Positions 31,239 to 62,951 of a stretch of 64,000 nucleotides of DNA are shown here, piece by piece. Both the position numbers and the translations under genes were made by a program. Within the stretch, counting starts at the first letter, position 1. Each line of letters opens with the position of its first letter. The DNA is taken from NCBI GenBank assembly GCA_965238305.1, contig CBDEHK010000001.1, positions 335,816 to 399,815 of the forward strand, read 5' to 3'. This stretch comes from Alphaproteobacteria bacterium. GTDB taxonomy: Bacteria > Pseudomonadota > Alphaproteobacteria > GCA-2731375. Under the pieces are notes generated by a model that was given only the letters and a program-made list of their open reading frames with translations, was not told the DNA's origin and did not search any database.

Positions 31239-32552
31239 ATGGCAGATATAGTAGTTCCCGCCCTGGGCGAATCGATTACTGAAGCGACCGTCGCGCAATG
31301 GTTTAAAAATGTCGGCGATGCGGTCAAGCGTGATGAGCCCTTGGTCGAGTTGGAGACTGACAAAGTGGCCTTGGAAGTCGCTAGTCCGAGCGACGGCGTG
31401 TTGACGGAAATTGCTGCCGGACCGGACGCAACGGTGGCCCCGGGCGCGATCCTGGGCCAAGTCGCCGAAGGTGAAGGCGCCGCGGCGGAGCCGGCGGCCG
31501 CAGCAACACCCGCACCGGCACCCACACCCACTCCTGCAGCGACCCCGGCGCCAGCGCCGGTTGCCGCAGCTGCCCCTGCACCGGCACCTGCTGCACCGGT
31601 CTCGGCGGCGAGCCCGGCCCTGTCTCCGGCAGTGCGGCGCCTGGTGCAAGAACACGGTTTGAGCGCCGCCCAAATACCAGCAACTGGAAAAAATGGCCGA
31701 TTGTCTAAAGATGACGTGCAACGCTTTGTCGATAGCGGTGCGGCGGCGCAACCAGCGCCAGCGCCTGCCACTGCACCCGCTCCAGTCGCCCAGGCGCCAG
31801 CACCGACATTGGCACCAGCCGACCATCAACCCGCCAGCACGCGTCCCCATGCGGCGCGGGAAGAAATCGTCCGCATGACCCGCTTGCGCAAAACCATCGC
31901 CAGGCGCCTGAAGGATGCCCAGAACACGGCAGCAATGCTGACCACCTATAACGAAGTCGATATGTCCGGGGTGATGAATGCGCGGAAGAAATATCGCGAT
32001 CTGTTCGAGAAACGCCACGGCGTTCGCGTCGGGTTCATGAGTTTCTTTGTCCGCGCCTGCGTCCTGGCTTTAAAACAAGTACCGGCGGTGAATGCGGAAG
32101 TCGACGGCGACAACCTGGTTTATAAAAACTACTACAATATCGGCGTTGCTGTGGGCACACCAAATGGCCTGGTCGTGCCGGTTCTGAATGACGCCGATAA
32201 TATGAGTTTCGCCGACATTGAAGGGACAATTTCCGATTACGGCCGCCGCGCCCGCGATGGCAAATTGTCGATTGATGAAATGCAGGGCGGGACGTTCACG
32301 ATTTCCAATGGCGGTGTCTATGGCTCGCTAATGTCGATGCCGATCTTGAACCCACCGCAATCGGGAATTCTGGGCATGCATAAAATTCAGGAACGCGCGA
32401 TGGTCGTCGACGGCGAAATAAAGATCTGTCCGATGATGTATCTGGCGATGAGTTACGATCACCGCATCATCGATGGCAGCGAAGCCGTCACCTTCCTTGT
32501 GAAGGTCAAAGAATATGTGGAAGAGCCGGAACGTTTGCTGCTGGAAGTCTGA
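31239..32552 (+). CDS. sucB: Dihydrolipoyllysine-residue succinyltransferase (2-oxoglutarate dehydrogenase E2)
   Basis: Lipoyl domain ([12 protein letters not shown]), a long Ala/Pro linker, a peripheral-subunit-binding domain and a catalytic DHRIIDG motif. Confidence 0.95.
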
Positions 32553-32580: not shown

Positions 32581-33993
32581 ATGAGTGAAGATAACTTCGA
32601 CGTCATATTTATAGGCGGCGGCCCGGGTGGTTATGCCGGGGCGATTAAAGCGGCGCAGCTGGGTCTGAAAACGGCTTGCGTTGAAAGCCGCGGCAGTTTG
32701 GGCGGCACCTGCCTGAATGTAGGCTGCATTCCCTCGAAAGCGCTGCTGGAAAGCTCGCATCACTATGCGACGGCAAAAGAGGAATTCGCCGAACATGGCA
32801 TCAAAGCGGACGGCTTAACCGTCGACCTGCAAGCGATGATGAAACGCAAAGACGATGTCGTCTCCGGCCTGACCGAAGGCATTGAAGGGTTATTCAAGAA
32901 AAACAAAGTTGAATATATCGAAGGTCATGGAACCATCGAAACTGCCGGTAAAGTCGCGGTTAAGATGAACGATGGCGATGATCGCACGTTAGAAACGGAA
33001 AACATTGTGATCGCCACCGGCTCTGATGTCATGGGGTTGCCGGGCATTAAAATCGACGAGAAAAAAGTCGTTTCCTCCACCGGCGCGCTCGCCCTCGACA
33101 AAGTGCCAAAACATCTTGTTGTTGTTGGCGGCGGTTATATTGGCCTTGAAATGGGATCGGTTTGGGCCCGCCTGGGATCGAAAGTTACCGTTGTTGAATT
33201 TCTCGACCGGATCACGCCGGGCATGGATACCGAATTGTCCCGCCACTTGATGCGGGCGCTCACCGCCCAAGGCATGGAGTTCCGCCTGAAAACCAAAGTC
33301 ACCGGCGCTGCGGTCACGAAATCCGGTGTCGACCTAACCGTTGAGCCGGCCGCCGGCGGTGATGAGGAAGTCATCAAGGCGAACACAGTCCTTGTCTCTA
33401 TCGGTCGCAAACCCTTCACCGATGGCCTGGGTCTGAAAGAAGCGGGCGTCGAAATGGATGCGCGTGGTTTTGTCCCGGTCGACGAAGATTATCAAACCAA
33501 TATAACCGGCATCTTCGCCATTGGCGACGTGATCCCGGACAAGCCGATGCTGGCCCATAAGGCGGAAGAAGAGGGCGCGGTCGTCGCCGAACTGCTGGCC
33601 GGCCATGTCGGTGCGGTGAATTACGGCGCCATCCCCGGCGTCGTCTATACTTGGCCGGAAGTCGCCACGGTCGGCAAAAGCGAAGACGAATTAAAAACCG
33701 ACGGGATCAAATACAACAAGGGCCGCTTCCCCTTTGCCGCCAATAGTCGGGCCCGCGCCACCGGCGACCAGGAAGGATTTGTCAAGATCCTGGCCGATGC
33801 CACAACCGACCAGGTGCTGGGTGCGCATATCATCGGTCCCGACGCCGGCACCATGATTGCGGAACTAGTCCTAGCGATTGACGCCGGCTTAAGTGCGGAA
33901 GATGTTGCCCTGACCTGTCATGCCCACCCGACCCTGAACGAAGCGGTCAAAGAAGCCGCCATGTCAGTGAACGGCAAACCGATCAATATGTGA
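32581..33993 (+). CDS. lpdA: Dihydrolipoyl dehydrogenase (E3)
   Basis: FAD motif (DVIFIGGGPGGY), redox-active disulfide (GGTCLNVGCIPSK) and C-terminal HAHPTLNE. Confidence 0.95.
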   Translation: MSEDNFDVIFIGGGPGGYAGAIKAAQLGLKTACVESRGSLGGTCLNVGCIPSKALLESSHHYATAKEEFAEHGIKADGLTVDLQAMMKRKDDVVSGLTEGIEGLFKKNKVEYIEGHGTIETAGKVAVKMNDGDDRTLETENIVIATGSDVMGLPGIKIDEKKVVSSTGALALDKVPKHLVVVGGGYIGLEMGSVWARLGSKVTVVEFLDRITPGMDTELSRHLMRALTAQGMEFRLKTKVTGAAVTKSGVDLTVEPAAGGDEEVIKANTVLVSIGRKPFTDGLGLKEAGVEMDARGFVPVDEDYQTNITGIFAIGDVIPDKPMLAHKAEEEGAVVAELLAGHVGAVNYGAIPGVVYTWPEVATVGKSEDELKTDGIKYNKGRFPFAANSRARATGDQEGFVKILADATTDQVLGAHIIGPDAGTMIAELVLAIDAGLSAEDVALTCHAHPTLNEAVKEAAMSVNGKPINM

Positions 33994-52587: not shown

Positions 52588-52664
<77 letters not shown>

Positions 52665-52752: not shown

Positions 52753-54849
52753 TCAAGACATATCCAGATCAGCAAAAAATTCCGACGCTGGTTTGATGCC
52801 TGTAACTAAAAGACGATCTCTTGCGCGGGTACAGGCGACGTAGAAGAGATGGCGTTCGGTTTCGTAAACCACGTCTAATTCTGTTTCGTCGGCGACGGTT
52901 TCGATACGTCGTTGCAAGGGCAAGATATCATCATCGCATTCAATGACCGCCACGGCTTTGAATTCCAGCCCTTTGGCTAAATGCATGGTGCCGATAGAGA
53001 CACGGCCTTCTCGTTCTTCTACCCGATCGGAAAGTTCCAGCGTCTTTTGACCGGCTTGCTTCACAACTTTACGCGCCCGCAGCAGTTCATCATTGCTGCG
53101 TACAAAGATGCCAATCTCGTCCGGTCCGATCCCATCGTCGATGGCCTGGCGCAGCCACCTTTCGACGCCCGCAGTTTCCTCGGCTAAGTCAGGAAAAATT
53201 TGCACTTCTGGTTCTGGCCCGTTGAAAATCGAAACCGTGCCTGAGCGATCTTCTTCGTTGCCATCGACATCGCGTACAACGGGGGGCAACAGACCATCTA
53301 CGGCTTGGCGGATTTGGTGCGACGTCCGGTAGTTGACCTTCAGCGTGTGCGATCGCCCACGAATATCGACGCCTAATGCCTTCCAGGAAAAGGGTTCCTG
53401 AAAAATGCGTTGCCCCAGATCGCCAGCGAAGAACAGGGCGCCTGGCTTTGGATCGGCGATGGCCGCGAGCATACGTAACTCAGACACGCCTAAATCCTGG
53501 GCTTCATCGACAATGATGTGGGTAAACGGTTTGTCTTGTCGTTCGGCAAAATGCGCTGTTACCTTGGCAAATACACTCGGCCAGGTGTCGAGGAGGTGAG
53601 CGCCCAATATTTGGCGCGCCTTTGCGAAGACAGGCCAGACGCGTTCACGCTGCTTCGATCCCAGTCGGTTCTTGCGACCTAGACGGCGAACATCGCGGTA
53701 GGCTTCCAGATCATTAAGTTGCCAGGCATCTACAACGTTGTTCCATTCTGAGATCAGGAAGCGATCGGTAAAACCTGTCAGCTTGAGTTCTTCGGCAGCG
53801 CCTTCAAGGGCCGCCTTTACATGTTTAGGTGTCGCCAGGTGGGGATGACGGGCAAAAGCCAGGGTAAATAAATCATCGGCGACGCCTTGGAATGGCAGGA
53901 TGGTCGCCTGACCGCCCGTTCCGTCCTTTCCGGTTAATAGTTCAAGTTTATGCTCAAGCGCGTTGGCAAGCGGCGACGAAAACGTCGTCAGCAACACTTT
54001 CGCCCGCTTGTCTTTGTTCATGATCGCGGCTGCCCGGTGTAACGCCACAACGGTCTTGCCGGTGCCGGCGGAACCGGATACGCGGGCCGGACCGCCAAAA
54101 GCTTGATCGACAATCCGGCGTTGGGATGGATGCAGAAAAATCGTCCATTGTTCCCATGGATAATCGAGCGCCCTTTGCAATTCTTCGACGTCGTCCAGTA
54201 CCCGGAAGCGACGCTGGGCATCGGGATGCTCGAAAGGATCAATATCGACCGGCGCAGTTTCAGCCAACCGCAGGACGCCGGTTGCGGCATAATCCAGCAA
54301 CGCTTCCGCCGCTTCTGCCGGCATATGGTCAGCGAGTTCGAAGAAGTTTTCTTCGGACGCTTGCAAAATATCGCCAATCCAATCTTCCGGCACCCCGATG
54401 TCCAGCAACTGATCGGCCGATAGATCCTGGAATAGCGGCGGCAGGTACTTTTCCTGCGGCACATCGCTGGCCGGAACGGGTTCAGGCGCGACATAAACCG
54501 GCAGGGTTATTTCCTCGACCCGCTCCCGCACTTCGACAATTTGCGCGGCGCCGGTCTTCGGGTGGGCCTCGATCCGCCGCCGTTCCGCCCATTTATAAGC
54601 GTCATCATGATGGTCGGCGTAACAAACCAGAAAGCTTTTCGCCGTTTTGTGGACGATGACGCGGATATCGCGGTTAACCCGGATCGACCAGAAGTTCGGG
54701 TCCTTCGATTTGTCAATGCGATGGAATTGCAACCCCGGCGACGACGGATCCTGCTGCATGTCGAAGACAGTGATCTTGACCGCCGATTGCTCTTGTGCCG
54801 TCAACCGCGCTAGGGCTTTGGAGAAACTATCAGCAAGGCGGAAAAGCAT
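52753..54849 (-). CDS. RelE/ParE-like N-terminal domain fused to a UvrD/Rep-like SF1 DNA helicase; last gene of the island operon
   Basis: SF1 motifs: GSAGTGKT, IIVDEAQDL, FFAGDLGQRIF, LKVNYRTSHQI, TMHLAKGLEFKAV and FYVACTRARDRLLV. Residues 1-95 read ...FHRIDKSKDPNFWSIRVNRDIRVIVHKTAKSFLVCYADHHDDAYKWAERR. Confidence 0.85.
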   Translation of the reverse strand: MLFRLADSFSKALARLTAQEQSAVKITVFDMQQDPSSPGLQFHRIDKSKDPNFWSIRVNRDIRVIVHKTAKSFLVCYADHHDDAYKWAERRRIEAHPKTGAAQIVEVRERVEEITLPVYVAPEPVPASDVPQEKYLPPLFQDLSADQLLDIGVPEDWIGDILQASEENFFELADHMPAEAAEALLDYAATGVLRLAETAPVDIDPFEHPDAQRRFRVLDDVEELQRALDYPWEQWTIFLHPSQRRIVDQAFGGPARVSGSAGTGKTVVALHRAAAIMNKDKRAKVLLTTFSSPLANALEHKLELLTGKDGTGGQATILPFQGVADDLFTLAFARHPHLATPKHVKAALEGAAEELKLTGFTDRFLISEWNNVVDAWQLNDLEAYRDVRRLGRKNRLGSKQRERVWPVFAKARQILGAHLLDTWPSVFAKVTAHFAERQDKPFTHIIVDEAQDLGVSELRMLAAIADPKPGALFFAGDLGQRIFQEPFSWKALGVDIRGRSHTLKVNYRTSHQIRQAVDGLLPPVVRDVDGNEEDRSGTVSIFNGPEPEVQIFPDLAEETAGVERWLRQAIDDGIGPDEIGIFVRSNDELLRARKVVKQAGQKTLELSDRVEEREGRVSIGTMHLAKGLEFKAVAVIECDDDILPLQRRIETVADETELDVVYETERHLFYVACTRARDRLLVTGIKPASEFFADLDMS

Positions 54850-56024
54850 TAGTGGGATTTTTCGTTTTTGTCGTTTGAATTGCGTTTCAAGGCTGTAGTC
54901 AATTTCTCAAGGAGAGAATTGACCATCGCATCTTCGTCGCGATTTTGGGCAAGTTCGATCGTTTTTTCATCCTTGCGCATAATGATATTTCGTTCTGATT
55001 GAAGCAGTTCTTTAGATAACTCACTCACCTGTTTGAGCGTCCCATGCTCAATTGCCAAAAGCGCACCGGCCTGGCGAAGGCTTAAAGTAGTTGCTTCGTT
55101 GGAAAAGTAGCGCATCATCTCCAAAGCCTTGGACTGATAGCGGAACATTATCAATGCCAGAACTTCTGCCAAAATTATGAAAGGAAGAGTGAAGGGGAGG
55201 TGACGAAACATGAACAATACTGAACTGCGCCCGCCTGGTTCGTTAGCGGAAACGGCATTCGTAAGGTCTCGTACGGTGCCAGACAACGTCGCATCTTCGC
55301 TGAAGTATAATATCAAGCTGTATGCGGCTATTGCAATCCCAGACAAAGAGAGCGCTAGTCCGATGAGGCGAAATAGAACAGCGGTGCGTTGTGCGGCAAG
55401 TGTCTGATCTAGAATACGGATTCGGTTAAGGTTGAATAAATCCGAAATACTTTGAATTAATCTTATTCGATCGGCATGATCTTTCGCCTGCTTTGCAACA
55501 CGCTCGCCTAGCGCAGCAACGATATCGCTGCCAAGCTCTTCATCCAATTTCACCTCAATTATTGCGTCTGCATTCGCCGTCAATTCACTAATATCAAGAT
55601 TGTTCGTTTTCTTCTCTAAGGAATCAATACGAGAAACAAGATCCCGGCGAAGACTTTCTATTGCAGATGACTGCTCTCGTTCTGCACTTGCAAGTTCAGA
55701 AAAATCTGCAGCACCTCTCCGAAGAATAAACTGACGAACAAACCTGAAAAAAATAACTGAAATTGTAAAAACTCCAATGGCCATCAATCCGAGAAAAGTT
55801 AGAAGAAGAAATGTGTCTGTGAATATAGTGCTGTCGCTCTTTCTATTTTTGTCCTTCTCCAGAATCGAGCCAACTTCTGAGAAGAAACTTTCGAGTTCGT
55901 TGCCGATTGAGAAGACCACCGCCACAATAGCAATTGCGATAGCGGCGGCGATTAACACATATTCAATAGCTGTGTTTCCTTTTATGTCCGAAAGGAAATT
56001 GCTACGTTGATTAATTCGTTCCAT
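54849..56024 (-). CDS. Four-TM coiled-coil membrane protein with an Flp-pilin-like N-terminus; function unknown
   Basis: 391-aa ORF, AT-rich, with an N-terminal KGNTAIEYVLIAAAIAIAIVAVV segment. Three further hydrophobic helices are separated by charged heptad-like segments. A TAATG overlap links it to the downstream helicase gene. Confidence 0.7.
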   Translation of the reverse strand: MERINQRSNFLSDIKGNTAIEYVLIAAAIAIAIVAVVFSIGNELESFFSEVGSILEKDKNRKSDSTIFTDTFLLLTFLGLMAIGVFTISVIFFRFVRQFILRRGAADFSELASAEREQSSAIESLRRDLVSRIDSLEKKTNNLDISELTANADAIIEVKLDEELGSDIVAALGERVAKQAKDHADRIRLIQSISDLFNLNRIRILDQTLAAQRTAVLFRLIGLALSLSGIAIAAYSLILYFSEDATLSGTVRDLTNAVSANEPGGRSSVLFMFRHLPFTLPFIILAEVLALIMFRYQSKALEMMRYFSNEATTLSLRQAGALLAIEHGTLKQVSELSKELLQSERNIIMRKDEKTIELAQNRDEDAMVNSLLEKLTTALKRNSNDKNEKSH

Positions 56025-56027
56025 ATT

Positions 56028-59015
56028 CTATACCCCAAAAACTTTCATCACTTCGTCACCGAAGTGGTTGATGACTTTGACGGCGAAGCGGCCGGTGGAG
56101 GGGCGGGCGAAGGGGATGCTTTTGTCGCGGTAGAGGGTTTGCCAGGCTTCCTCATCGATCTCCGCCTTCAGCGTAGTCTTCAGTGATTTGTACGGGTCCT
56201 GGGCGCCCATGAAATAGGCATGGCGGACGAAAAAACTTTCTTCGTCATAATCGCTGTCGATGAACCAGGCGGCGATGTCGTCCTTGCCGCTGGCGCGCAC
56301 CTCGCCGGTCTTGGGATCGAAGACGTCGACGCCCAGAACTTCGACGGTGATCATGCCGTCGTCACCGAAGGCCCATTCGATGTCCGGTTCGCCAAAAACG
56401 ACGAACAAATTGCCGGCTCCGGTATTTTTTAACTCGTCCGACATATGTAGGTCCGGGTTCATCTTCGCCTTTAGGATCGGCAATGGACCAAGCTTGCTCA
56501 GCTCCGACGTATGGGCATCGAAGTTGAAGCCGCAGGCGATCAAGGTATCGAAGCGGGCATCCAAGGCTTCGCGCGCCGCCGCCGTCAAATCGGCGCGGGT
56601 GATCGAGCCGAATTCAGGGCCGATGAAGATGGCGCCCCGGCGTTCGGTCTCGCCCTCCATATAGCGGCCTTCGGCGGCGATATAGTTGCCGGGCCAACCG
56701 TCGATGGTGGTGAAGCTTACGCGATCTTCCTTGGCGGCTTGATGGACCCCGGCGGATTTCAAATTGTCCAAGACCATCGTTGTGAAATCGTTCAGCGGCG
56801 CCGGCGTGTCGCGTTTTTCCTTCCGGCCTTCGGCGGCATCGACCAATTCGATCAGTTCTTCGTTATCCGATGTCTGCATGCGGTGCGGCGACAGGCTTTC
56901 GACCGTGAAAGGCCCGGCGACGCGGACCTTGGCCTTGTCCTCGTAAGGCCGATCATAGAGATATTCGACGTCTGCTTTTTTCGCGATGGAGGCGTCGATT
57001 TCCCGCTGCCGGGCGATCCGCTGTTGCCACCAGTCGCCGTGTGCCTTCAATACTGCAGCGGACCAACCTTCGCCGGCTTCGCGGGGAATTTCCCATTCCT
57101 CCCAGGCTTCGCCCAGGGCATCTTTCAGCGCCACCCGCAACGATTCCAGTTTTTCCTGATAACTTTCCAAGATCACATCGATTTCGGCGTTGTTGGCGAT
57201 GACGCCGGATGTAATGTACCTAGACCTTTTATAAACAAAGCCTTGGCGGATATCGCCCTGGGTCGAAGTATCCGGCTGAATGACGCCGGAAAGCTCCTGT
57301 TCCTTTGTTTGGCCTTCGGCGCTGTCGGCAAGCAGATAATAGGGATAACGCGCGCCCATCAAGCGCGCCCGCGCCAGGGCCAGCGAGACCCGAGAGGTAT
57401 CGACGGTGATCCAGCGCCGCCCCCACTGCTCCGCTACAAACGCAGTCGTGCCTGAGCCGCAAGTAGGATCGAGCACGATGTCCCCTGGGTCCGTGGCCAT
57501 GAGAATACAGCGTTGCACCAGGCGCTCATTTGTTTGAACAATATATACTTGGCTGGAAGCCCCCCCAAATCCATCCCACCAATTCGAGATGCTCTTAAAA
57601 GGAAAATCCTCCAAATATCTCCTATAATCTAGGCTTGTCTTTGATGGGATTAACCGCCCAGCAAGTTTTACTCGTTCCATCCCAGTAAGGCCGACCATCG
57701 TATCCTTGGACGTATGGCTCCAACAACGCCCCTTTGGCGGATCAAAAGACTTACCTGACAAAACAATCGGGGCCATTTGGTTTTCACGGAATCCACCGTT
57801 GGTGATTGGCCATGGTCTGAATAGTCTAGCGTTCGGGTAATCTTCCTGAATTCGCTTTGGGTAAAGGCGGTAATCTATGTATTCGCCATCAATATCTTCA
57901 TTGGACTTGAGGTTAATAGTTTTTCCATCAGGCAATTCCAGTCTAGAAAACTCGTCGATCGTTTCATTATCAAGAAGTCTGTCAACGAATAGACTTCTGT
58001 ATTTAGTTACGCCCCTTGCGCGTTCTGATTTCCCGTACCACAAAATGAAATCATTAACGGGATCTATCATTGAGCTTTTTTGTGATCCTTTTTTCTTGAC
58101 AAGAATTTCAGTGATAAAACTCCCCTCCCCAAACACCTCATCCATCAGCGCGCGGACCCGGTGGACGTTTTCGTCGCCGATTTGCACGAAGATGGAGCCG
58201 CTGTCCGTGAGCATGTCGCGCATTACGGTCAGACGGTCGCGGAGATAGGTGAGATAGGAATGGATGCCGTCTTTCCAGGTATCGCGGAAGGCTTTGACCT
58301 GTTCCGGTTCGCGGGTGATCTGATCCAGCTTGCCGTCCTTCACGTCGCGGCTGCGGGTCGAAACCTGCCAATTGGAATTGAACTTAATGCCATAAGGTGG
58401 ATCGAAATAGATGCATTGCACTTTGCCGCGTAGTTGTTCCCGCTCAGCCAGGCTGGCCATGACCTGCAGACTGTCGCCCAGGATCATGCGGTTTTGCCAA
58501 TTGCGGTCGTGCTGATAAAACTCGGTCGCCGCTTCCGGATCGATGCCGTTGAAATCGCCGAACAAGTCCGGCATTGCCGCTTCCTGTTCCCGCCGTTCGT
58601 CGGTTTGGCGTTTCAAATCGTCAATGATTGCCTTGGGGTGAATTTTTTCCTGGATATAAAGCGGCGGTGCCTGCACCACCAGGTCAGACCAGTCTTGTTC
58701 ATCCTTGCCGCGCCAAACCAATTGCGCATCGCCGATTTCTAGCTTGCCGGTTTCCTTTAATTCTTCGATCTGCGCCGGATTCAGACGCAGGGTCGCGCCC
58801 TTCCAGATGATTTGCGGGTCCAGATCGCCTTCGCGCGGCCGTGTTGCCCCTTCCATCAACGGATCTTCGCGGGCATAAGTCACCGGCTCCACCGGCGCCA
58901 TCTCCTCCGCCCGCTGCGCCACCGTCTGCAACTCCGCCGTTGGAATATTCTTCCGCCGCGCCTTCTCATGCTTCAGCGTCTCGACTTGCTTAGCTTTTTT
59001 TGGCTTACGCGCCAT
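56028..59015 (-). CDS. Large beta-class DNA amino-methyltransferase (N6-A or N4-C), Type III Mod-like
   Basis: 995-aa ORF. Motif IV (IYFDPPYG) precedes motif I (VLDPTCGSGTTAFVAEQWGRRWITVD), which is the beta permutation. An AT-rich central segment between the two motifs is the presumptive target-recognition domain. Confidence 0.88.
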   Translation of the reverse strand: MARKPKKAKQVETLKHEKARRKNIPTAELQTVAQRAEEMAPVEPVTYAREDPLMEGATRPREGDLDPQIIWKGATLRLNPAQIEELKETGKLEIGDAQLVWRGKDEQDWSDLVVQAPPLYIQEKIHPKAIIDDLKRQTDERREQEAAMPDLFGDFNGIDPEAATEFYQHDRNWQNRMILGDSLQVMASLAEREQLRGKVQCIYFDPPYGIKFNSNWQVSTRSRDVKDGKLDQITREPEQVKAFRDTWKDGIHSYLTYLRDRLTVMRDMLTDSGSIFVQIGDENVHRVRALMDEVFGEGSFITEILVKKKGSQKSSMIDPVNDFILWYGKSERARGVTKYRSLFVDRLLDNETIDEFSRLELPDGKTINLKSNEDIDGEYIDYRLYPKRIQEDYPNARLFRPWPITNGGFRENQMAPIVLSGKSFDPPKGRCWSHTSKDTMVGLTGMERVKLAGRLIPSKTSLDYRRYLEDFPFKSISNWWDGFGGASSQVYIVQTNERLVQRCILMATDPGDIVLDPTCGSGTTAFVAEQWGRRWITVDTSRVSLALARARLMGARYPYYLLADSAEGQTKEQELSGVIQPDTSTQGDIRQGFVYKRSRYITSGVIANNAEIDVILESYQEKLESLRVALKDALGEAWEEWEIPREAGEGWSAAVLKAHGDWWQQRIARQREIDASIAKKADVEYLYDRPYEDKAKVRVAGPFTVESLSPHRMQTSDNEELIELVDAAEGRKEKRDTPAPLNDFTTMVLDNLKSAGVHQAAKEDRVSFTTIDGWPGNYIAAEGRYMEGETERRGAIFIGPEFGSITRADLTAAAREALDARFDTLIACGFNFDAHTSELSKLGPLPILKAKMNPDLHMSDELKNTGAGNLFVVFGEPDIEWAFGDDGMITVEVLGVDVFDPKTGEVRASGKDDIAAWFIDSDYDEESFFVRHAYFMGAQDPYKSLKTTLKAEIDEEAWQTLYRDKSIPFARPSTGRFAVKVINHFGDEVMKVFGV

Positions 59016-59931
59016 CTACTTGCCCCGTAGTTACAAACATCGGCTTTTGGTGCGGACCCGGCGAGTGGCCAAGAACTTCCACTATTTCATAACTGTCATT
59101 AACCCATGCGCCGATCATTTCATCTTTTTTTTGATGGATGCGGAGCATAACTCGCAATGTATCACCAGTTCCAATGACGTATTCATGGCTAGCTAATTTG
59201 TCGTAAAACATGTCATCTAGGATCGGCGCTGATATCTTTATCCCGTCACGCCAGACAAACTGCCATTTACGTGGCCCGCGTTCAAAGATTGCGCGGATAA
59301 TCAGAAGTTCGGTTTTTTCATATTTGTTGCGACGATTTTCTTGAGAAATGACGATATCACGTACTTCGGAAAGGCGAGGGAATTGAGCGCGCGGAACATT
59401 TACGAGAAGTTGCTCATCCTTAATGTCCTTAGCAATTCCAAAATTCTGTACGTCTTGGTCTTTTTGCAATATTTCGAACGCATTCGAGACCCTTTGTTCA
59501 AGCTCAAGATTTTTAGAGATTTTCTCTTTCTGCTCGCCAACTTCTTTTGGAAGAATAACCCTTTGGTTGCCAGATTCTACGACGTAATGATCGTCGTTCA
59601 CGTAGATGTTAATGTCGGGATCGTCTGCGATAAATTTCTCATAAATAAAGGCCGTAAGTAATCCAAGTACGATCGTCAACGCAGCCGTGCGAATGAGTGG
59701 AGTCGCTCGTTTCGATAATGTCCTTATACGTGCCCTAAAAGAGCCTTCGCCCAAAGCATCAATGTAAATCTCAATCTCAAAATCAGGATTAATCGCCCTA
59801 CTTATTTCCTTTATTGCCGAACTGACTTCGAGCAAGGTATTGGCAAATGTTTCTGCGTTAATTCGGCCGAACTCACCACCAAAGTGAATTACAAATTCGT
59901 CGCCTAGACTTGTAAGGTCAACGGTTTGCAT
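59005..59931 (-). CDS. Orphan 308-aa protein with one predicted TM helix, inserted between res and mod
   Basis: AT-rich ORF. Its start overlaps the res stop (TGATG), and its stop lies 8 nt inside mod. It has one hydrophobic helix (LIRTAALTIVLGLLTAFIY). I recognise no family motif. Confidence 0.65.
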   Translation of the reverse strand: MQTVDLTSLGDEFVIHFGGEFGRINAETFANTLLEVSSAIKEISRAINPDFEIEIYIDALGEGSFRARIRTLSKRATPLIRTAALTIVLGLLTAFIYEKFIADDPDINIYVNDDHYVVESGNQRVILPKEVGEQKEKISKNLELEQRVSNAFEILQKDQDVQNFGIAKDIKDEQLLVNVPRAQFPRLSEVRDIVISQENRRNKYEKTELLIIRAIFERGPRKWQFVWRDGIKISAPILDDMFYDKLASHEYVIGTGDTLRVMLRIHQKKDEMIGAWVNDSYEIVEVLGHSPGPHQKPMFVTTGQVDGA

Positions 59932-62900
59932 CAGCTACCACCCTTCTGCGCGGCTTTCTCGATCAACGCCTTAAACCGCTCATCCATCTTGAACACCTCA
60001 CCGAATTCTTCGAAAGACCAGCGGCCGTAGGTGCCAAGATTATTGACGCCGGGGATCCACTGGGTCTTCATTGTTTCGGATTTCAGTTTGACGTTTTCGT
60101 TGCGGTAACCTTTCACTTCGACGATCAAGTGCAGCGGATCGTCCGCGCCATGGCCGTCGTCGATTTGGACGATGAAGTCGGGGATATAGTGTCGGGCGGT
60201 TGAGCCGTCCTTGTATGGCACTTCCAGGCCCAGGCCCTGGTTCTTCACATAGGAAATGACCTGCGAATGCTGTTCCGCGACACGAGCGAATTCACCTTCC
60301 CAGTCGCTGTCTTCCACGACGAAGTTGATGTGGCATTTATCGGCTGCGGTCTTCCAAAGGTCTTTGGTGGTACGAAAGCCGACATGGGCGGTGGAGCCAT
60401 TGGGGTTATAGGGATCTAATACGGCTTTGATCTTTTGCTGATCGCCGATGGAGCGGATGATGGCGTGATAGATGCGTTCAGAGGCTTGATTGGCGATGTT
60501 CAGATATTCCAACATCCAGGCGCCGGTATCGCCGGTGCAAACAAGATACCCACCTTCAATCCATTGTCGAGCAATACGGCGTAAAGGCCAAAACAGGTGC
60601 AACTTGGGCTCGCCATCCTGGTCAGTGTAATATTTGTACATCAAATGTTTGGCGAGATCGTAGGCGATGGTGCTGGGTCGTTTGCTTTGCGCTTCCGCTG
60701 CCGTGATTGTCATGCCTTCACCGACGATACCTTCCATCCGCGTTTGGCCGGGTCCGACCAATTCGGGCGTCAGCACGAATTTTGAATCCTCGGTGAATTC
60801 CGCCGTCAATTTTTCTTCCGGCATTTCGACGCGATAGCCGGTGACGCGCGGGAAGGTAATTTCCAATGCGGCGCGTTCCTTCACCGCCGCGACCCAGGTC
60901 GACGGCTTGGGTGGTTTCACAGGGGCGACTTGCGGTTTGGCGGTGAAATCAAACGGGATGCCTAGAATGTCGGCATATTCAACGTCGAACAGATCTTCGT
61001 CATTCAGATCATAAGAATAACGACGTAATCCGCGGCCGACCACCTGTTCGCAAAGCAATTGGGTGCCAAAGGCGCGAATACCAAGGATATGGGTAACGGT
61101 GTTGGTATCCCAACCTTCAGTCAACATGGATACGGAGACAACACAGCGCACTTGCTCGCCCAAGCGTCCGGTTTTGCCGACCGTGTTCATCACTTCACGC
61201 AACAGGTCGGCATCGGTTTCGTCCGCCAGTTCGCCCCGTTGTCGGCGTTCGCGGCGGAACTGTTCGATTTCGCCTGCCGCCATAGTTCGAAAGTTCTTAT
61301 CCAGCGCTTCGCCGGATTCCAATTGAAAGCTGTCGATTAGCAGCGTGTTCGGTCTGGCCAGCGGCTCGCCATATTCGTCGTAATTACGAAATAGTTCCAG
61401 ATGGCCGTGATGCTCAAAAACCATCTCACCATCTTCGTTCGACCGTTGCCAGCCGGAAATCCATTCATGGACCAATTTTGATGTCGAGGTATTGTTGCAG
61501 ACGACGATGAAGACTGGTGGTGTTTCAATCCCCGCACGCTGCCATTCCGCATCGGTTTCTTGATAGTGTTTATAGAGCGCATATAGCGCTGTTTTAAGCG
61601 TGTCGTGGATCAACAGGGGATCGCTAGTGGTTCGCCCCTTCTTCGGCATATACTTGCCGATATGTTCCCAAAGATCGCGGAAGATCGGCATGTCTGCGCC
61701 GGGGATATTGTCGGCAACCGGGACGCGCGGCAGCTTGACGATGCCGCATTCAATGGCGTCCATTAATGAGAAGTCGCAAACCGTCCAGGGGAACAAGGTG
61801 CCTTCGGCCCAGCCCGACCCGCTTAAGAAAAACGGTGTGGCAGAGAGATCGTAAACGGCACGGACGCCTAGCTTGCGCTTGAAGGCTTCTAGGCCGCTGA
61901 TCCAAACGCGCGCCGCCTTGTTGTCCGCTTCCGCTTCTTTTTTTTCGTCACCCCTTAGATCCGCAACATCATCCGTGCCTGTTTTCGCGCGGTAACAATG
62001 ATGGGCTTCATCATTGATCACCAAGATATTTTTCAGGCCCATTAGGGGATCGGCGACACGGCGGATCATCTGACCTTCGGTTTCCTGTGTCTTTGGCGCT
62101 TCACCACGGCCCTGCAGCAGCGAGCGGCCAATTTTATTGGTTGCCATCTGCTCGCGCAGCTGAAAGGCGTGGTAGTTGGTGATGACGATCTTGGCCTTAT
62201 GGACGTCCGGCAACATATCCGCAGGTACCAGTTCGCGTGACTGATAGTAACTGTCGACATCGTTGGGCTGCAGGACCCGCAAACGGTCTTTAATAGTAAT
62301 ACCCGGCGTGACGACCAGAAAACCACGCGTGAAAAGTCGGCTGGTGGGTGAGCGCACCGCATTCACGGTCTGCCAGGCGATCAACATCGCCATCACCGTG
62401 GTCTTGCCAGCACCGGTGGCCATTTTCATCGCCAGGCGGATCAGTTCCGGATTGGCTTGCTCATTGGCGCCATGGACATGATCCCAATACCCCTTGTGCG
62501 TCTTTTGCGTCCGCGCCACTTCGGTTAGCCAAATGATCGTCTCGACCGCTTCGATCTGGCAGAAGAAAGGGCGGATGCCCTGGAACTCGTGATGACGCCA
62601 ATGCTGCAGAAGTCGAGCGGTCGCCGGGGTGACACCCCAATCGGACTGGCTTGGCAGTCTTCGCCAATTGGCAACATGCGTGCGGATCTCATTAATGATC
62701 GGCGTTGGGTTGTATTCCTGCTCTTCCGATGAAATGCCATCATTGCCAGCCAAATCCATAGCCGCCTGCTTCGGGTCGGCTTTCTGGCGCCGTTTCCTGG
62801 GTTTTGGCACCGGCGTGATAAACTCCGATCGTCGGCGGCCAGCGTTGGGCGGATTGTCTGTCGGTTGCCCTTCATCGTCCAAGTCGTGATAGCGGCCTGG

Positions 62901-62951
62901 CTCCTCATAAGGGGAGTTGAGAATTGGCTGTTCGTAAAAGCTATGGGCCAT
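59931..62951 (-). CDS. Type III-like restriction enzyme Res subunit (SF2 helicase/translocase plus a C-terminal PD-(D/E)xK nuclease)
   Basis: 1006-aa ORF whose N-terminus (FYEQPILNSPYEEPGRYHDLDDEGQPT) is typical of this Res family. It has Walker A (MATGAGKTTV), DEAH (VINDEAHHC) and motif VI (QVVGRGLRR), plus a C-terminal YIPDF...LIVEVKGY nuclease motif. Confidence 0.88.
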   Translation of the reverse strand: MAHSFYEQPILNSPYEEPGRYHDLDDEGQPTDNPPNAGRRRSEFITPVPKPRKRRQKADPKQAAMDLAGNDGISSEEQEYNPTPIINEIRTHVANWRRLPSQSDWGVTPATARLLQHWRHHEFQGIRPFFCQIEAVETIIWLTEVARTQKTHKGYWDHVHGANEQANPELIRLAMKMATGAGKTTVMAMLIAWQTVNAVRSPTSRLFTRGFLVVTPGITIKDRLRVLQPNDVDSYYQSRELVPADMLPDVHKAKIVITNYHAFQLREQMATNKIGRSLLQGRGEAPKTQETEGQMIRRVADPLMGLKNILVINDEAHHCYRAKTGTDDVADLRGDEKKEAEADNKAARVWISGLEAFKRKLGVRAVYDLSATPFFLSGSGWAEGTLFPWTVCDFSLMDAIECGIVKLPRVPVADNIPGADMPIFRDLWEHIGKYMPKKGRTTSDPLLIHDTLKTALYALYKHYQETDAEWQRAGIETPPVFIVVCNNTSTSKLVHEWISGWQRSNEDGEMVFEHHGHLELFRNYDEYGEPLARPNTLLIDSFQLESGEALDKNFRTMAAGEIEQFRRERRQRGELADETDADLLREVMNTVGKTGRLGEQVRCVVSVSMLTEGWDTNTVTHILGIRAFGTQLLCEQVVGRGLRRYSYDLNDEDLFDVEYADILGIPFDFTAKPQVAPVKPPKPSTWVAAVKERAALEITFPRVTGYRVEMPEEKLTAEFTEDSKFVLTPELVGPGQTRMEGIVGEGMTITAAEAQSKRPSTIAYDLAKHLMYKYYTDQDGEPKLHLFWPLRRIARQWIEGGYLVCTGDTGAWMLEYLNIANQASERIYHAIIRSIGDQQKIKAVLDPYNPNGSTAHVGFRTTKDLWKTAADKCHINFVVEDSDWEGEFARVAEQHSQVISYVKNQGLGLEVPYKDGSTARHYIPDFIVQIDDGHGADDPLHLIVEVKGYRNENVKLKSETMKTQWIPGVNNLGTYGRWSFEEFGEVFKMDERFKALIEKAAQKGGS

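What the first reader, a model, noticed from the sequence alone, without database searches (positions are those of the whole stretch)
54849..56024. Four-TM coiled-coil protein carrying an Flp-pilin-type N-terminal motif inside a defence operon
Residues of about 14-40 read DIKGNTAIEYVLIAAAIAIAIVAVV. This matches the hallmark of Flp/Fap pilins: a G followed by xTAIEY and a hydrophobic helix, which is the class III signal-peptide site cut by TadV/CpaA-type prepilin peptidases. Here the motif heads a 391-aa protein rather than a pilin of about 60 aa. Three more hydrophobic helices and long charged heptad-like segments follow. No tad/cpa genes lie nearby. The gene is AT-rich and shares its stop with the start of the helicase gene (TAATG). 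Such a protein could be a pore-forming or membrane-depolarising effector, or a sensor, within the operon.
Basis: partly seen in the sequence, partly recalled or inferred. Interest (0 to 1): 0.7.

Follow-up and report, generated by a model that had tools for sequence, protein, structure and literature searches.

The report
Flp-pilin-headed membrane protein in restriction operon
A 391-residue inner-membrane protein of an uncharacterised phage-associated family has had its first membrane helix replaced by a complete Flp pilin precursor. It sits as swappable cargo inside a restriction-modification operon, and this fusion was found in no other sequence, so it is a curiosity whose function is still unknown.

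Summary
The gene lies on the minus strand at 54849-56024. Its residues 10-53 pass Pfam's Flp_Fap threshold (40.3 bits against a cut-off of 32.2). Residues 1-60 align without gaps to genuine 57-96-aa Flp prepilins and keep the cleavage glycine, Glu+5 and Tyr+6. Four hydrophobic helices and the TAATG overlap with the helicase gene are real. Heptad periodicity is not significant.

Residues ~70-391 belong to a 2+2-transmembrane family (PHROG 5157, function unknown; about 480 cluster representatives). None of 97 other members scanned carries the Flp module, and two targeted searches for other large Flp-headed proteins found none. In the orthologous operon (helicase 76% identical) the membrane gene starts at the same position but has an unrelated N-terminus.

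Among 80 further res-mod-helicase loci none has this family. The mod-helicase gap is either empty or holds unrelated conflict-type genes (GmrSD, Macro, OLD-like ATPase, Mrr and others). The gene is therefore exchangeable cargo in an intra-operon hotspot.

The most likely role is a membrane-acting accessory defence or exclusion protein, with the Flp module serving as signal anchor.

The parts
54849..56024 (-). Whole gene, 391 aa plus stop (P0001): a chimera of an Flp prepilin module and a PHROG-5157-type 2+2 TM membrane core
55977..56024 (-). aa 1-16: basic prepilin-type leader (MERINQRSNFLSDIKG) ending in the conserved Gly (-1)
   Evidence: aligns with the leaders of six real Flp prepilins
55959..55979 (-). 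aa 16-22: G/NTAIEY, the putative TadV/CpaA processing site with Glu+5 and Tyr+6
   Evidence: motif definition from PMC3244431
55866..55997 (-). aa 10-53: Pfam Flp_Fap match (profile 1-44 of 46). It includes TM1 (aa 17-39) and the C-terminal pilin segment GNELESFFSEVGS
   Evidence: 40.3 bits, GA 32.2
55725..55802 (-). aa 75-100: TM2, the first segment shared with the wider family
55380..55724 (-). aa 101-215: charged helical cytoplasmic stalk. AF2 predicts long helices; heptad periodicity is not significant
55137..55379 (-). aa 216-296: TM3, a short periplasmic loop, and TM4 with a membrane-embedded Glu287 that is invariant among the 11 closest homologs
54852..55136 (-). aa 297-391: the most conserved part of the family (FRYQSKxLEMMRYFSNE ... 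ERNIIMRKDEKT). Predicted cytoplasmic
   Evidence: phrog_5157 matches aa 268-365
56028..59015 (-). Upstream gene: type III-like DNA methyltransferase (mod). Its stop lies 3 nt before the P0001 start
   Evidence: (PADLOC MTase_III 1139 bits)
52753..54849 (-). Downstream gene: UvrD-like SF1 helicase with a weak RelE/HigB-like N-terminal match. Its start overlaps the P0001 stop (TAATG)
59005..59931 (-). Cargo gene in the other slot (res-mod): PADLOC candidate PDC-S42 / NCBIfam LAPAL family. It is also AT-rich
59931..62951 (-). res: BPTD_3080-family restriction endonuclease (SF2 helicase plus C-terminal nuclease)
   Evidence: 1296 bits
52588..52664 (+). tRNA-Arg(CCG), marking the boundary between metabolic genes and the island

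Best explanation
P0001 is an evolutionary chimera. A complete Flp prepilin coding unit (leader, G/xxxxEY site, hydrophobic Flp helix and the short C-terminal pilin segment, aa 1-60) occupies the place of the first transmembrane helix. The recipient is a 2+2-TM inner-membrane protein of the uncharacterised family that PHROGs calls phrog_5157. [shown]

The swap keeps the topology. An Flp prepilin inserts with its N-terminus in the cytoplasm and its C-terminus in the periplasm, as TM1 of this family must. The stalk (aa 101-215) and the conserved C-terminal domain (aa 297-391) therefore stay in the cytoplasm. [inferred from hydropathy and the positive-inside rule]

The whole chimeric gene has one low-GC composition, unlike the operon backbone, so it arrived as a unit. 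[shown] It sits in an exchangeable cargo slot between mod and a UvrD-like helicase in a type III-like restriction operon. In other loci that slot is empty or holds typical conflict genes. [shown]

My commitment on function [inferred]: it is an autonomous accessory protein acting at the inner membrane against incoming phage or mobile DNA. It would either exclude entry or collapse the membrane on infection. The conserved TM3-TM4 hairpin, with its buried Glu, and the C-terminal domain would be the working part. The highly variable N-terminal hairpin would be the specificity or anchoring part. In this copy the Flp module most probably serves simply as the signal anchor. It would be trimmed by a TadV/CpaA peptidase if the host has one, but it could not be built into a pilus, because three further membrane helices hold it in the membrane.
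For: Flp homology: Pfam score above the gathering cut-off; real Flp pilins retrieved from 1.84e9 representatives; gapless alignment from the leader to the pilin C-terminus, with G-1, E+5 and Y+6 kept (criteria from PMC3244431).

Family core: about 480 representatives match aa ~70-390. phrog_5157 matches 90 of 98 members. The 2+2 TM architecture is found in 68 of 98. The conserved positions are E310, E344-R345-N346 and T355.

The module is a replacement: only 1 of 98 members has Flp_Fap. Two region-restricted searches among 100-684-aa proteins found no other Flp-headed protein. The L003 ortholog starts at the same stop+3 nt+ATGGAA junction but has an unrelated N-terminus, and its remainder is 44% identical. 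The flanking helicase is 76% identical, and the two mod proteins end in the same C-terminal residues.

Imported as a unit: GC is 0.42 for the Flp module and 0.44 for the whole gene, against 0.55 for res, mod and helicase.

Cargo slot: none of the 80 helicase-anchored metagenome loci has the family. 13 of the 47 loci in which the slot could be measured have a gap of 115 nt or less, too short for a gene. The others hold DUF4062, NOV_C+MTaX1, AAA_15/21, DuOB+DUF488, radical SAM, GmrSD, M78, Macro or Mrr_cat genes that end at the helicase start.

Phage or mobile-element link of the family: membership of phrog_5157; L097 lies beside a prophage endolysin and holin; L002 lies beside Gabija and Mob genes; L007 has a resolvase and a C5-MTase; L008 follows an AAA_21/DUF4435 gene.

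The sequence is real: identical contigs in two runs.
Against: There is no functional evidence at all, and no PADLOC, Pfam, PDB or BFVD relative for the core.

Several homologues sit alone among housekeeping genes, so the family may not be dedicated to defence.

The chimera is a singleton (cluster of 1 sequence on 1 contig). Purifying selection on the Flp module therefore cannot be assessed.

Asn at +1 and Val at +7 differ from the six closest pilins (Ala at +1; Gly or Ala at +7), so cleavage competence is not assured.

It is unknown whether the genome has any Tad system or A24 peptidase (genome search was shut).

Tight translational coupling to the helicase could instead mean a functional partnership.
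Confidence: 0.5

Rival explanations
1. The Flp module is functionally exploited. It makes the protein a substrate of, or decoy for, the Tad pilus machinery (TadV peptidase, TadB/C platform). The membrane-locked pseudo-pilin would then poison, cap or sense Tad pilus dynamics and exclude phages that use Tad pili as receptors.
For: The entire prepilin is retained, including the leader, G-1, E+5 and Y+6, and not just a hydrophobic helix. In the one orthologous pair available, the N-terminal hairpin is unrelated while the rest is 44% identical, as expected of a specificity element. The gene sits in a defence-cargo slot.
Against: It is a singleton and no tad genes lie within about 13 kb. The presence of a Tad system in the genome is unknown. 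Asn at +1 and Val at +7 differ from the six closest pilins. Nothing links the family to pili in any other context.
Confidence: 0.12
2. P0001 is the membrane partner (sensor or anchor) of the downstream RelE-like/UvrD-like helicase. It would tether or activate the helicase at the site of DNA entry, in the manner of the membrane components of Zorya or Kiwa.
For: The TAATG stop/start overlap is conserved in the window, L003 and L004. The long cytoplasmic stalk and conserved cytoplasmic C-terminal domain could dock a partner.
Against: 80 of 82 orthologous helicase loci lack the family. 13 of the 47 loci in which the slot could be measured have no room for a gene in it (gap of 115 nt or less), and unrelated soluble cargo in other loci is just as tightly joined to the helicase. 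The family also occurs without any helicase.
Confidence: 0.13
3. The family is a general membrane protein (housekeeping, stress or lysis-related) with no role in defence. Its presence in the operon is incidental hitch-hiking, and the Flp head is a neutral accident.
For: Solo homologues lie among core metabolic genes in Thalassospira, Methylosinus/Methylocystis and a Rhodospirillales MAG. There is no PADLOC model.
Against: The slot otherwise holds conflict-type genes only. The family equals a PHROG. The distribution is patchy, the composition is AT-rich and foreign, and sequence divergence is high. The ORF is intact and translationally coupled.
Confidence: 0.2
4. The Flp resemblance is chance similarity of an ordinary hydrophobic signal anchor, or the long ORF is an assembly artefact joining a small flp gene to a membrane-protein gene.
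For: Short hydrophobic profiles can give spurious matches. The protein is a singleton in a 15-billion-protein collection.
Against: Pfam E = 2.7e-10 and the score is above the gathering cut-off. A six-pilin HMM scores 79.5 bits, and similarity extends through the polar leader and the polar C-terminal pilin segment. Contigs from two runs are identical with no gaps. The family needs two N-terminal TM helices (68 of 98 members), and without the Flp helix only one would remain.
Confidence: 0.03

Closest known systems
Flp/Fap prepilins of Tad (type IVc) pili (Pfam PF04964)
   Same: aa 1-60 has all sequence hallmarks: a basic leader, Gly at -1, TAIEY with Glu+5/Tyr+6, a ~20-aa hydrophobic Flp motif and a short amphipathic C-terminal segment. 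Identity to real Flp pilins is 48-62% in local matches and 41-53% over the full aligned overlap.
   Different: Flp pilins are about 50-90 aa, end where this module ends, and are encoded in tad loci with TadV. Here the module continues into 330 more residues with three further membrane helices. No tad genes are nearby, and incorporation into a filament is topologically implausible.
[quoted passage not shown] S. sanguinis PilB/PilC; archaeal sugar-binding proteins)
   Same: A pilin-type N-terminal module is joined to an unrelated functional body, the 'cut and paste' described in PMC10191384.
   Different: In known cases the grafted part is a soluble extracytoplasmic domain displayed on a filament or surface. 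Here it is a polytopic membrane protein with large cytoplasmic parts. I know of no described Flp-type (T4c) example, and two database searches found none.
PHROG family phrog_5157 (unknown function)
   Same: The core of P0001 (aa 268-365) matches it (E = 1.1e-8), and so do 90 of 98 relatives (best E = 1e-43). The 2+2 TM architecture is shared.
   Different: The family has no assigned function or Pfam model, and its other scanned members lack the Flp head.
Restriction-linked accessory genes such as PrrC in the EcoprrI type Ic locus, and RloC
   Same: A non-R-M gene is embedded between R-M subunit genes and co-transcribed with them. In PrrC it acts as a second-line abortive-infection device (PMC1484252, PMC2610378). 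The mod-helicase slot here carries a comparable variety of conflict genes.
   Different: PrrC is a soluble ABC-ATPase/anticodon nuclease silenced by its R-M partner. No dependence of P0001 on the R-M enzyme is shown, and its family also occurs away from R-M genes.
Four-helix membrane components of phage defence or exclusion (RexB, Kiwa KwaA, CBASS 2TM/4TM effectors, Sie proteins)
   Same: A small to mid-size polytopic inner-membrane protein encoded in a defence context.
   Different: There is no detectable sequence or fold relationship. PADLOC gave no match for P0001, and only stray sub-threshold hits for a few relatives. Foldseek gave nothing below E = 0.1 in the PDB.

Membership tests
Flp/Fap pilin (PF04964) | Profile match above Pfam's gathering score | tested here: met
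   40.3 bits against 32.2, E = 2.7e-10, profile positions 1-44 of 46
Flp/Fap pilin (PF04964) | Processing motif: Gly at -1, Glu/Asp at +5, Tyr at +6, then a ~20-aa hydrophobic Flp motif (PMC3244431) | tested here: met
   G16 / N17-T-A-I-E21-Y22 followed by VLIAAAIAIAIVAVV. Asn at +1 and Val at +7 differ from the six closest pilins.
Flp/Fap pilin (PF04964) | A small protein (~50-90 aa) that ends after the short C-terminal segment, so it can be extracted from the membrane into a filament | tested here: not met
   391 aa with three further hydrophobic helices
Flp/Fap pilin (PF04964) | Encoded in or with a tad/cpa locus that includes a TadV/CpaA peptidase | tested here: inconclusive
   None between 39.8 and 63 kb of the window.
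Flp/Fap pilin (PF04964) | Cleavage by the prepilin peptidase and polymerisation into a pilus | not testable with these tools
   Needs N-terminal proteomics or mobility-shift assays with and without TadV
phrog_5157-type 2+2 TM membrane family | Profile match to the conserved TM4 plus C-terminal region | tested here: met
   phrog_5157 E = 1.1e-8 over aa 268-365. 90 of 98 relatives match. phmmer finds 487 representatives at E <= 1e-3, a count that also includes the small Flp pilins.
phrog_5157-type 2+2 TM membrane family | Two N-terminal TM helices, a helical cytoplasmic stalk, two more TM helices and a conserved C-terminal domain with E..ERN..T | tested here: met
   (68 of 98 members are 2+2)
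Known anti-phage defence proteins (PADLOC-DB v2) | Match to any curated defence or candidate model | tested here: not met
   No family for P0001 at E <= 0.1. Among 98 relatives there are only stray weak hits (LeoBC in 6, E = 1e-5).
Modular pilins | A pilin N-terminal module followed by a soluble extracytoplasmic grafted domain | tested here: not met
   The grafted part has three TM helices and predicted cytoplasmic domains
Restriction-linked accessory (PrrC-like) genes | Embedded between R-M subunit genes, in an operon with them | tested here: met
   The gene starts 3 nt after mod and overlaps the helicase start by 1 nt. The slot is variable across 47 loci.
Restriction-linked accessory (PrrC-like) genes | Activity silenced or triggered through the R-M enzyme | not testable with these tools
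   Needs genetics. The family also occurs without R-M genes.

The most novel reading that the evidence does not exclude
A membrane-locked pseudo-pilin: the intact Flp prepilin head makes this cargo protein a TadV substrate that docks into the Tad pilus platform. A restriction island would then carry a device that blocks or senses Tad-pilus-mediated phage entry. This would be the first polytopic non-pilin client of the Flp/Tad pathway and the first defence protein that mimics a pilin.
Probability: 0.1. Interest if true: 0.8.

Novelty: new variant of a known kind. Interest (0 to 1): 0.45.

Why it matters
If the Flp head is processed or recognised, this would extend the substrates of TadV-type prepilin peptidases from pilins and pseudopilins to a polytopic membrane protein. 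It would also suggest a pilin-mimicry route to phage exclusion.

Independently of that, the survey shows that a widespread res-mod-helicase restriction operon (more than 80 loci here) has internal cargo slots. These slots collect AT-rich conflict genes such as GmrSD, Macro, an OLD-like ATPase, Mrr, DUF4062 and PDC-S42. That places the uncharacterised PHROG-5157 membrane family among candidate defence or exclusion genes and gives a simple positional handle for finding further ones.

Against this, the Flp fusion itself is a single occurrence with no functional data, so at present it is a well-documented curiosity rather than a system.

Tried and rejected
(1) Known fold or family for the core. 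The Pfam, NCBIfam and PADLOC scans, hmmsearch against the PDB, and Foldseek against the PDB and BFVD with a pLDDT-79.8 model gave only non-specific helical matches (ClyA E = 0.17, chemoreceptors, Smc arms, ExbB at rank 41). Rejected as evidence of relationship.

(2) Coiled coil. A heptad-periodicity test against shuffles was not significant.

(3) Other Flp-headed large proteins. Two region-restricted searches found none. Sensitivity is limited to sequences that share 5-residue words.

(4) Homologues in annotated phages and plasmids. There was no phage match, and one weak plasmid-collection match (28.6% identity, E = 4e-4).

(5) Tad locus or TadV in the same genome. The genome search was shut. 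The look-up of encoding contigs does not hold P0001. Housekeeping proteins of the window are singletons without organism names, so neither the taxon nor its Tad status could be established.

(6) A resident donor flp gene. No other contig of the source runs matches the Flp-coding part at 85% or more, and its GC equals that of the cargo gene rather than the host. A recent in-situ fusion with a host flp gene is rejected.

(7) RNA evidence. No RNA runs were found.

(8) A direct repeat of the tRNA-Arg 3' end, to delimit the island. None is present in the window.

(9) The idea that the family is obligatorily paired with the helicase. Rejected by the 80-locus survey.


Full report
**1. What is there**

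The ORF at 54849..56024 lies on the minus strand and encodes 391 aa. It is the fourth of five head-to-tail genes:
- res (59931-62951): NCBIfam BPTD_3080 restriction endonuclease, 1296 bits.
- A 308-aa gene (59005-59931): PADLOC candidate PDC-S42 and NCBIfam LAPAL family.
- mod (56028-59015): PADLOC MTase_III, 1139 bits.
- The target gene.
- A UvrD-like SF1 helicase (52753-54849) with a weak HigB/RelE-like N-terminal match.

The target starts 3 nt after the mod stop (TAG AAT ATG). Its TAA stop overlaps the helicase ATG as TAATG. A tRNA-Arg(CCG) at 52588-52664 separates the island from betaine-transport and oxidoreductase genes.

**2. The Flp motif is real**

Pfam Flp_Fap (PF04964) matches residues 10-53 over nearly the whole profile (positions 1-44 of 46). 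The score is 40.3 bits against a gathering cut-off of 32.2, with E = 2.7e-10.

An exhaustive phmmer search of 1.84 billion cluster representatives returned two kinds of hit. Long proteins matched residues ~70-390. Genuine small Flp pilins (57-96 aa) matched residues 3-63 at 48-62% identity. JGI names two of these pilin clusters 'pilus assembly protein Flp/PilA'.

Aligned with six of them, residues 1-60 run without a gap from the basic leader to the natural end of the pilin. The alignment passes through the glycine at -1, TAIEY (Glu+5, Tyr+6), the hydrophobic Flp helix and the polar segment G-N-E-L-E-S-F-F-S-E-V-G-S. These are the features that define Flp prepilins cleaved by TadV (PMC3244431).

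An HMM built from the six pilins alone scores the ORF at 79.5 bits. It hits nothing else in the window or in the other fetched loci. The only departures from the six closest pilins are Asn at +1 (Ala in all six) and Val at +7 (Gly in five, Ala in one).

**3. The rest of the protein**

Hydropathy gives four membrane helices, at about aa 17-39, 75-100, 216-242 and 274-296. Basic residues follow TM2 and TM4. The leader, the stalk (aa 101-215) and the C-terminal domain (aa 297-391) are therefore predicted to be cytoplasmic.

AlphaFold2, run with a 98-sequence alignment, gives an all-helical model (mean pLDDT 79.8). Very long helices run from the membrane into the cytoplasm and back. Heptad periodicity is not significant, so 'coiled coil' is not established.

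Residues ~70-391 belong to a diffuse family. There are 487 representatives at E <= 1e-3, a count that includes the pilins. The family equals phrog_5157, of unknown function, which matches 90 of 98 members. It has no family-wide Pfam model and no PADLOC model. It has no sequence relative in the PDB and no significant fold relative in the PDB or BFVD.

The typical architecture is 2+2 TM helices, found in 68 of 98 members. The conserved part is TM4, with a buried Glu287 that is invariant among the 11 closest sequences, plus the following domain (…FRYxSKxLExxRYFxNE … ERNxIxxKxExT). The N-terminal hairpin shows no conservation across the family.

**4. The Flp head is a one-off replacement of TM1**

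- Only the query carries Flp_Fap among the 98 members scanned.
- None of the ten closest homologues has it in the precomputed annotation.
- Two searches restricted to the N-terminal module, among proteins of 215-684 aa and of about 100-320 aa, found nothing but the query.
- The query's 90%-identity cluster has one member on one contig.

The clearest comparison is L003, an orthologous operon from a metagenome. Its helicase is 76% identical. Its mod ends with the same FAVKVINHFGDEVMKVFGV. The membrane gene begins at the same stop+3 nt+ATGGAA junction, but its first ~105 residues (two helices) are unrelated and not Flp-like. The remainder is 44% identical.

The Flp-coding part has the same low GC (0.42; GC3 0.47) as the rest of the gene (0.44). 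The backbone genes are at 0.55, with GC3 of 0.59-0.65. No other contig from the source runs resembles the Flp-coding part. The chimera was therefore formed elsewhere and imported whole.

Contigs from two runs of the source sample agree base for base over 54600-56300. This argues against an assembly artefact.

**5. The operon context: a cargo slot**

Using the helicase as an anchor, I fetched 80 metagenomic loci (52-76% identity). mod lies upstream in 62 of the 82 other helicase-bearing loci (the 80 plus L003 and L004). res is also seen where the contig reaches far enough.

The membrane family is present in none of the 80. It occurs only in L003/L004 and the window. The HMM recovered all known members in the control loci, so the search was sensitive enough.

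In the 47 loci in which it could be measured, the distance from the mod end to the helicase reading frame is 115 nt or less in 13. In the other 34 it is 0.4-2.7 kb. The inserted genes are mutually unrelated, mostly AT-rich and mostly soluble, and many end right at the helicase start. Pfam identifies the following:
- DUF4062
- NOV_C + MTaX1
- an AAA_15/AAA_21 (OLD/AbiEii-like) ATPase
- DuOB + two DUF488
- radical SAM
- a nucleoside deoxyribosyltransferase-like protein
- GmrSD
- an M78 peptidase
- Macro
- Mrr_cat

The res-mod gap varies likewise. In the window it holds the PADLOC candidate PDC-S42.

This is the pattern of an intra-operon hotspot for accessory conflict genes. It recalls restriction-linked genes such as prrC in the EcoprrI locus (PMC1484252, PMC2610378). 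Position therefore argues that P0001 is an accessory defence or exclusion gene. It also shows that P0001 is not a required partner of the helicase or the R-M enzyme.

**6. Contexts of the family elsewhere are mixed**

| Context type | Loci |
|---|---|
| Mobile or defence-like | L001 (IS elements and a 1569-aa PIN-associated protein); L002 (Gabija and Mob genes); L007 (resolvase and a C5 methyltransferase); L008 (follows an AAA_21/DUF4435 gene) |
| Prophage edge, right after an endolysin and a holin; this member has N-terminal pentapeptide repeats | L097 |
| Solo, among core metabolic genes | Thalassospira tepidiphila ('hypothetical protein'), Methylosinus sporium (L012), a Rhodospirillales MAG (L011) and L005; Methylocystis (L014) holds a homologue, but its neighbours were not examined |

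**7. How it most likely works**

Shown:
- It is a chimera of an Flp prepilin and a phrog_5157 core.
- The swap conserves topology.
- It was imported as a unit.
- It sits in a cargo slot.

Inferred:
- The conserved TM3-TM4 hairpin, with its buried glutamate, and the cytoplasmic C-terminal domain are the working module.
- The variable N-terminal hairpin gives anchoring or specificity.
- The protein acts on its own at the inner membrane against incoming phage or mobile DNA, either by exclusion or by membrane collapse.
- Here the Flp head serves as the N-in/C-out signal anchor. A TadV/CpaA peptidase could remove its leader if the host has one. Extraction into a pilus is implausible, because three more helices anchor the protein.

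I put about 0.5 on this overall package. That breaks down as roughly 0.9 for the chimera and cargo parts, 0.4 for a defence or exclusion role, and 0.6 for 'signal anchor only'.

Rival explanations:
- Exploitation of the Flp head to engage Tad machinery: 0.12.
- Partnership with the helicase: 0.13.
- A non-defence membrane protein: 0.2.
- Chance or artefact: 0.03.

**8. Limits**

The whole-genome tools were shut. Neither the presence of a tad locus or prepilin peptidase nor the taxon could be determined. No RNA data exist. No experiment bears on function.

**9. Verdict**

The finding is a new variant of known kinds, namely a pilin-headed modular protein and a restriction-linked cargo gene. Interest is moderate. 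The fusion is striking but unique and of unknown function. The more general result is the cargo hotspot inside a widespread res-mod-helicase operon.

Noticed in passing
window 52753-62951; loci L015-L094: The res-mod-UvrD-like-helicase operon is a conserved chassis in more than 80 metagenomic loci. It has two variable internal slots (res-mod and mod-helicase) filled with unrelated, mostly AT-rich conflict genes: GmrSD, Macro, OLD-like ATPase, Mrr, DUF4062, NOV_C+MTaX1, DuOB+DUF488, radical SAM and M78. In 13 of the 47 loci measured, the mod-helicase gap is 115 nt or less, too short for a gene.
   Followed up: partly
window 59005-59931 (-): The gene between res and mod matches PADLOC candidate PDC-S42 (E = 2.7e-16) and NCBIfam 'LAPAL motif-containing putative phage structural protein' (169 bits). 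It is as AT-rich (GC 0.44) as the target gene. The corresponding slot in L003 holds an unrelated 269-aa gene plus a NYN-domain gene.
   Followed up: partly
window 57216-58115 (-), inside mod: GC drops to 0.39-0.48 in the fourth and fifth 300-nt blocks of mod, against 0.56-0.60 in the other blocks. This is consistent with a swapped target-recognition segment.
   Followed up: no
window 52753-54849 (-), aa 32-81: The N-terminus of the helicase gives a weak HigB/RelE-like Pfam match (E = 0.009). The whole protein matches phrog_1967 'DNA helicase' strongly (E = 1.6e-76). This N-terminal region is conserved in the L003 ortholog.
   Followed up: no
L097 5055-6269: A family member with N-terminal pentapeptide repeats in place of the TM hairpin lies directly after a prophage endolysin (Hydrolase_2) and a GTA-type holin, at the prophage/host boundary. 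Five of the 98 members have pentapeptide repeats.
   Followed up: no
window 55154-55304: A 151-nt contig identical to this stretch occurs at depth 2 in a run labelled as a different organism and study (X3). It could be carry-over or a rare occurrence of the same strain.
   Followed up: no
window 26147-47664 (several genes): Housekeeping proteins of this genome (for example 32581-33993 and 31239-32552) are singletons at 90% identity in a 15-billion-protein collection. The organism appears to be a sparsely sampled lineage.
   Followed up: no
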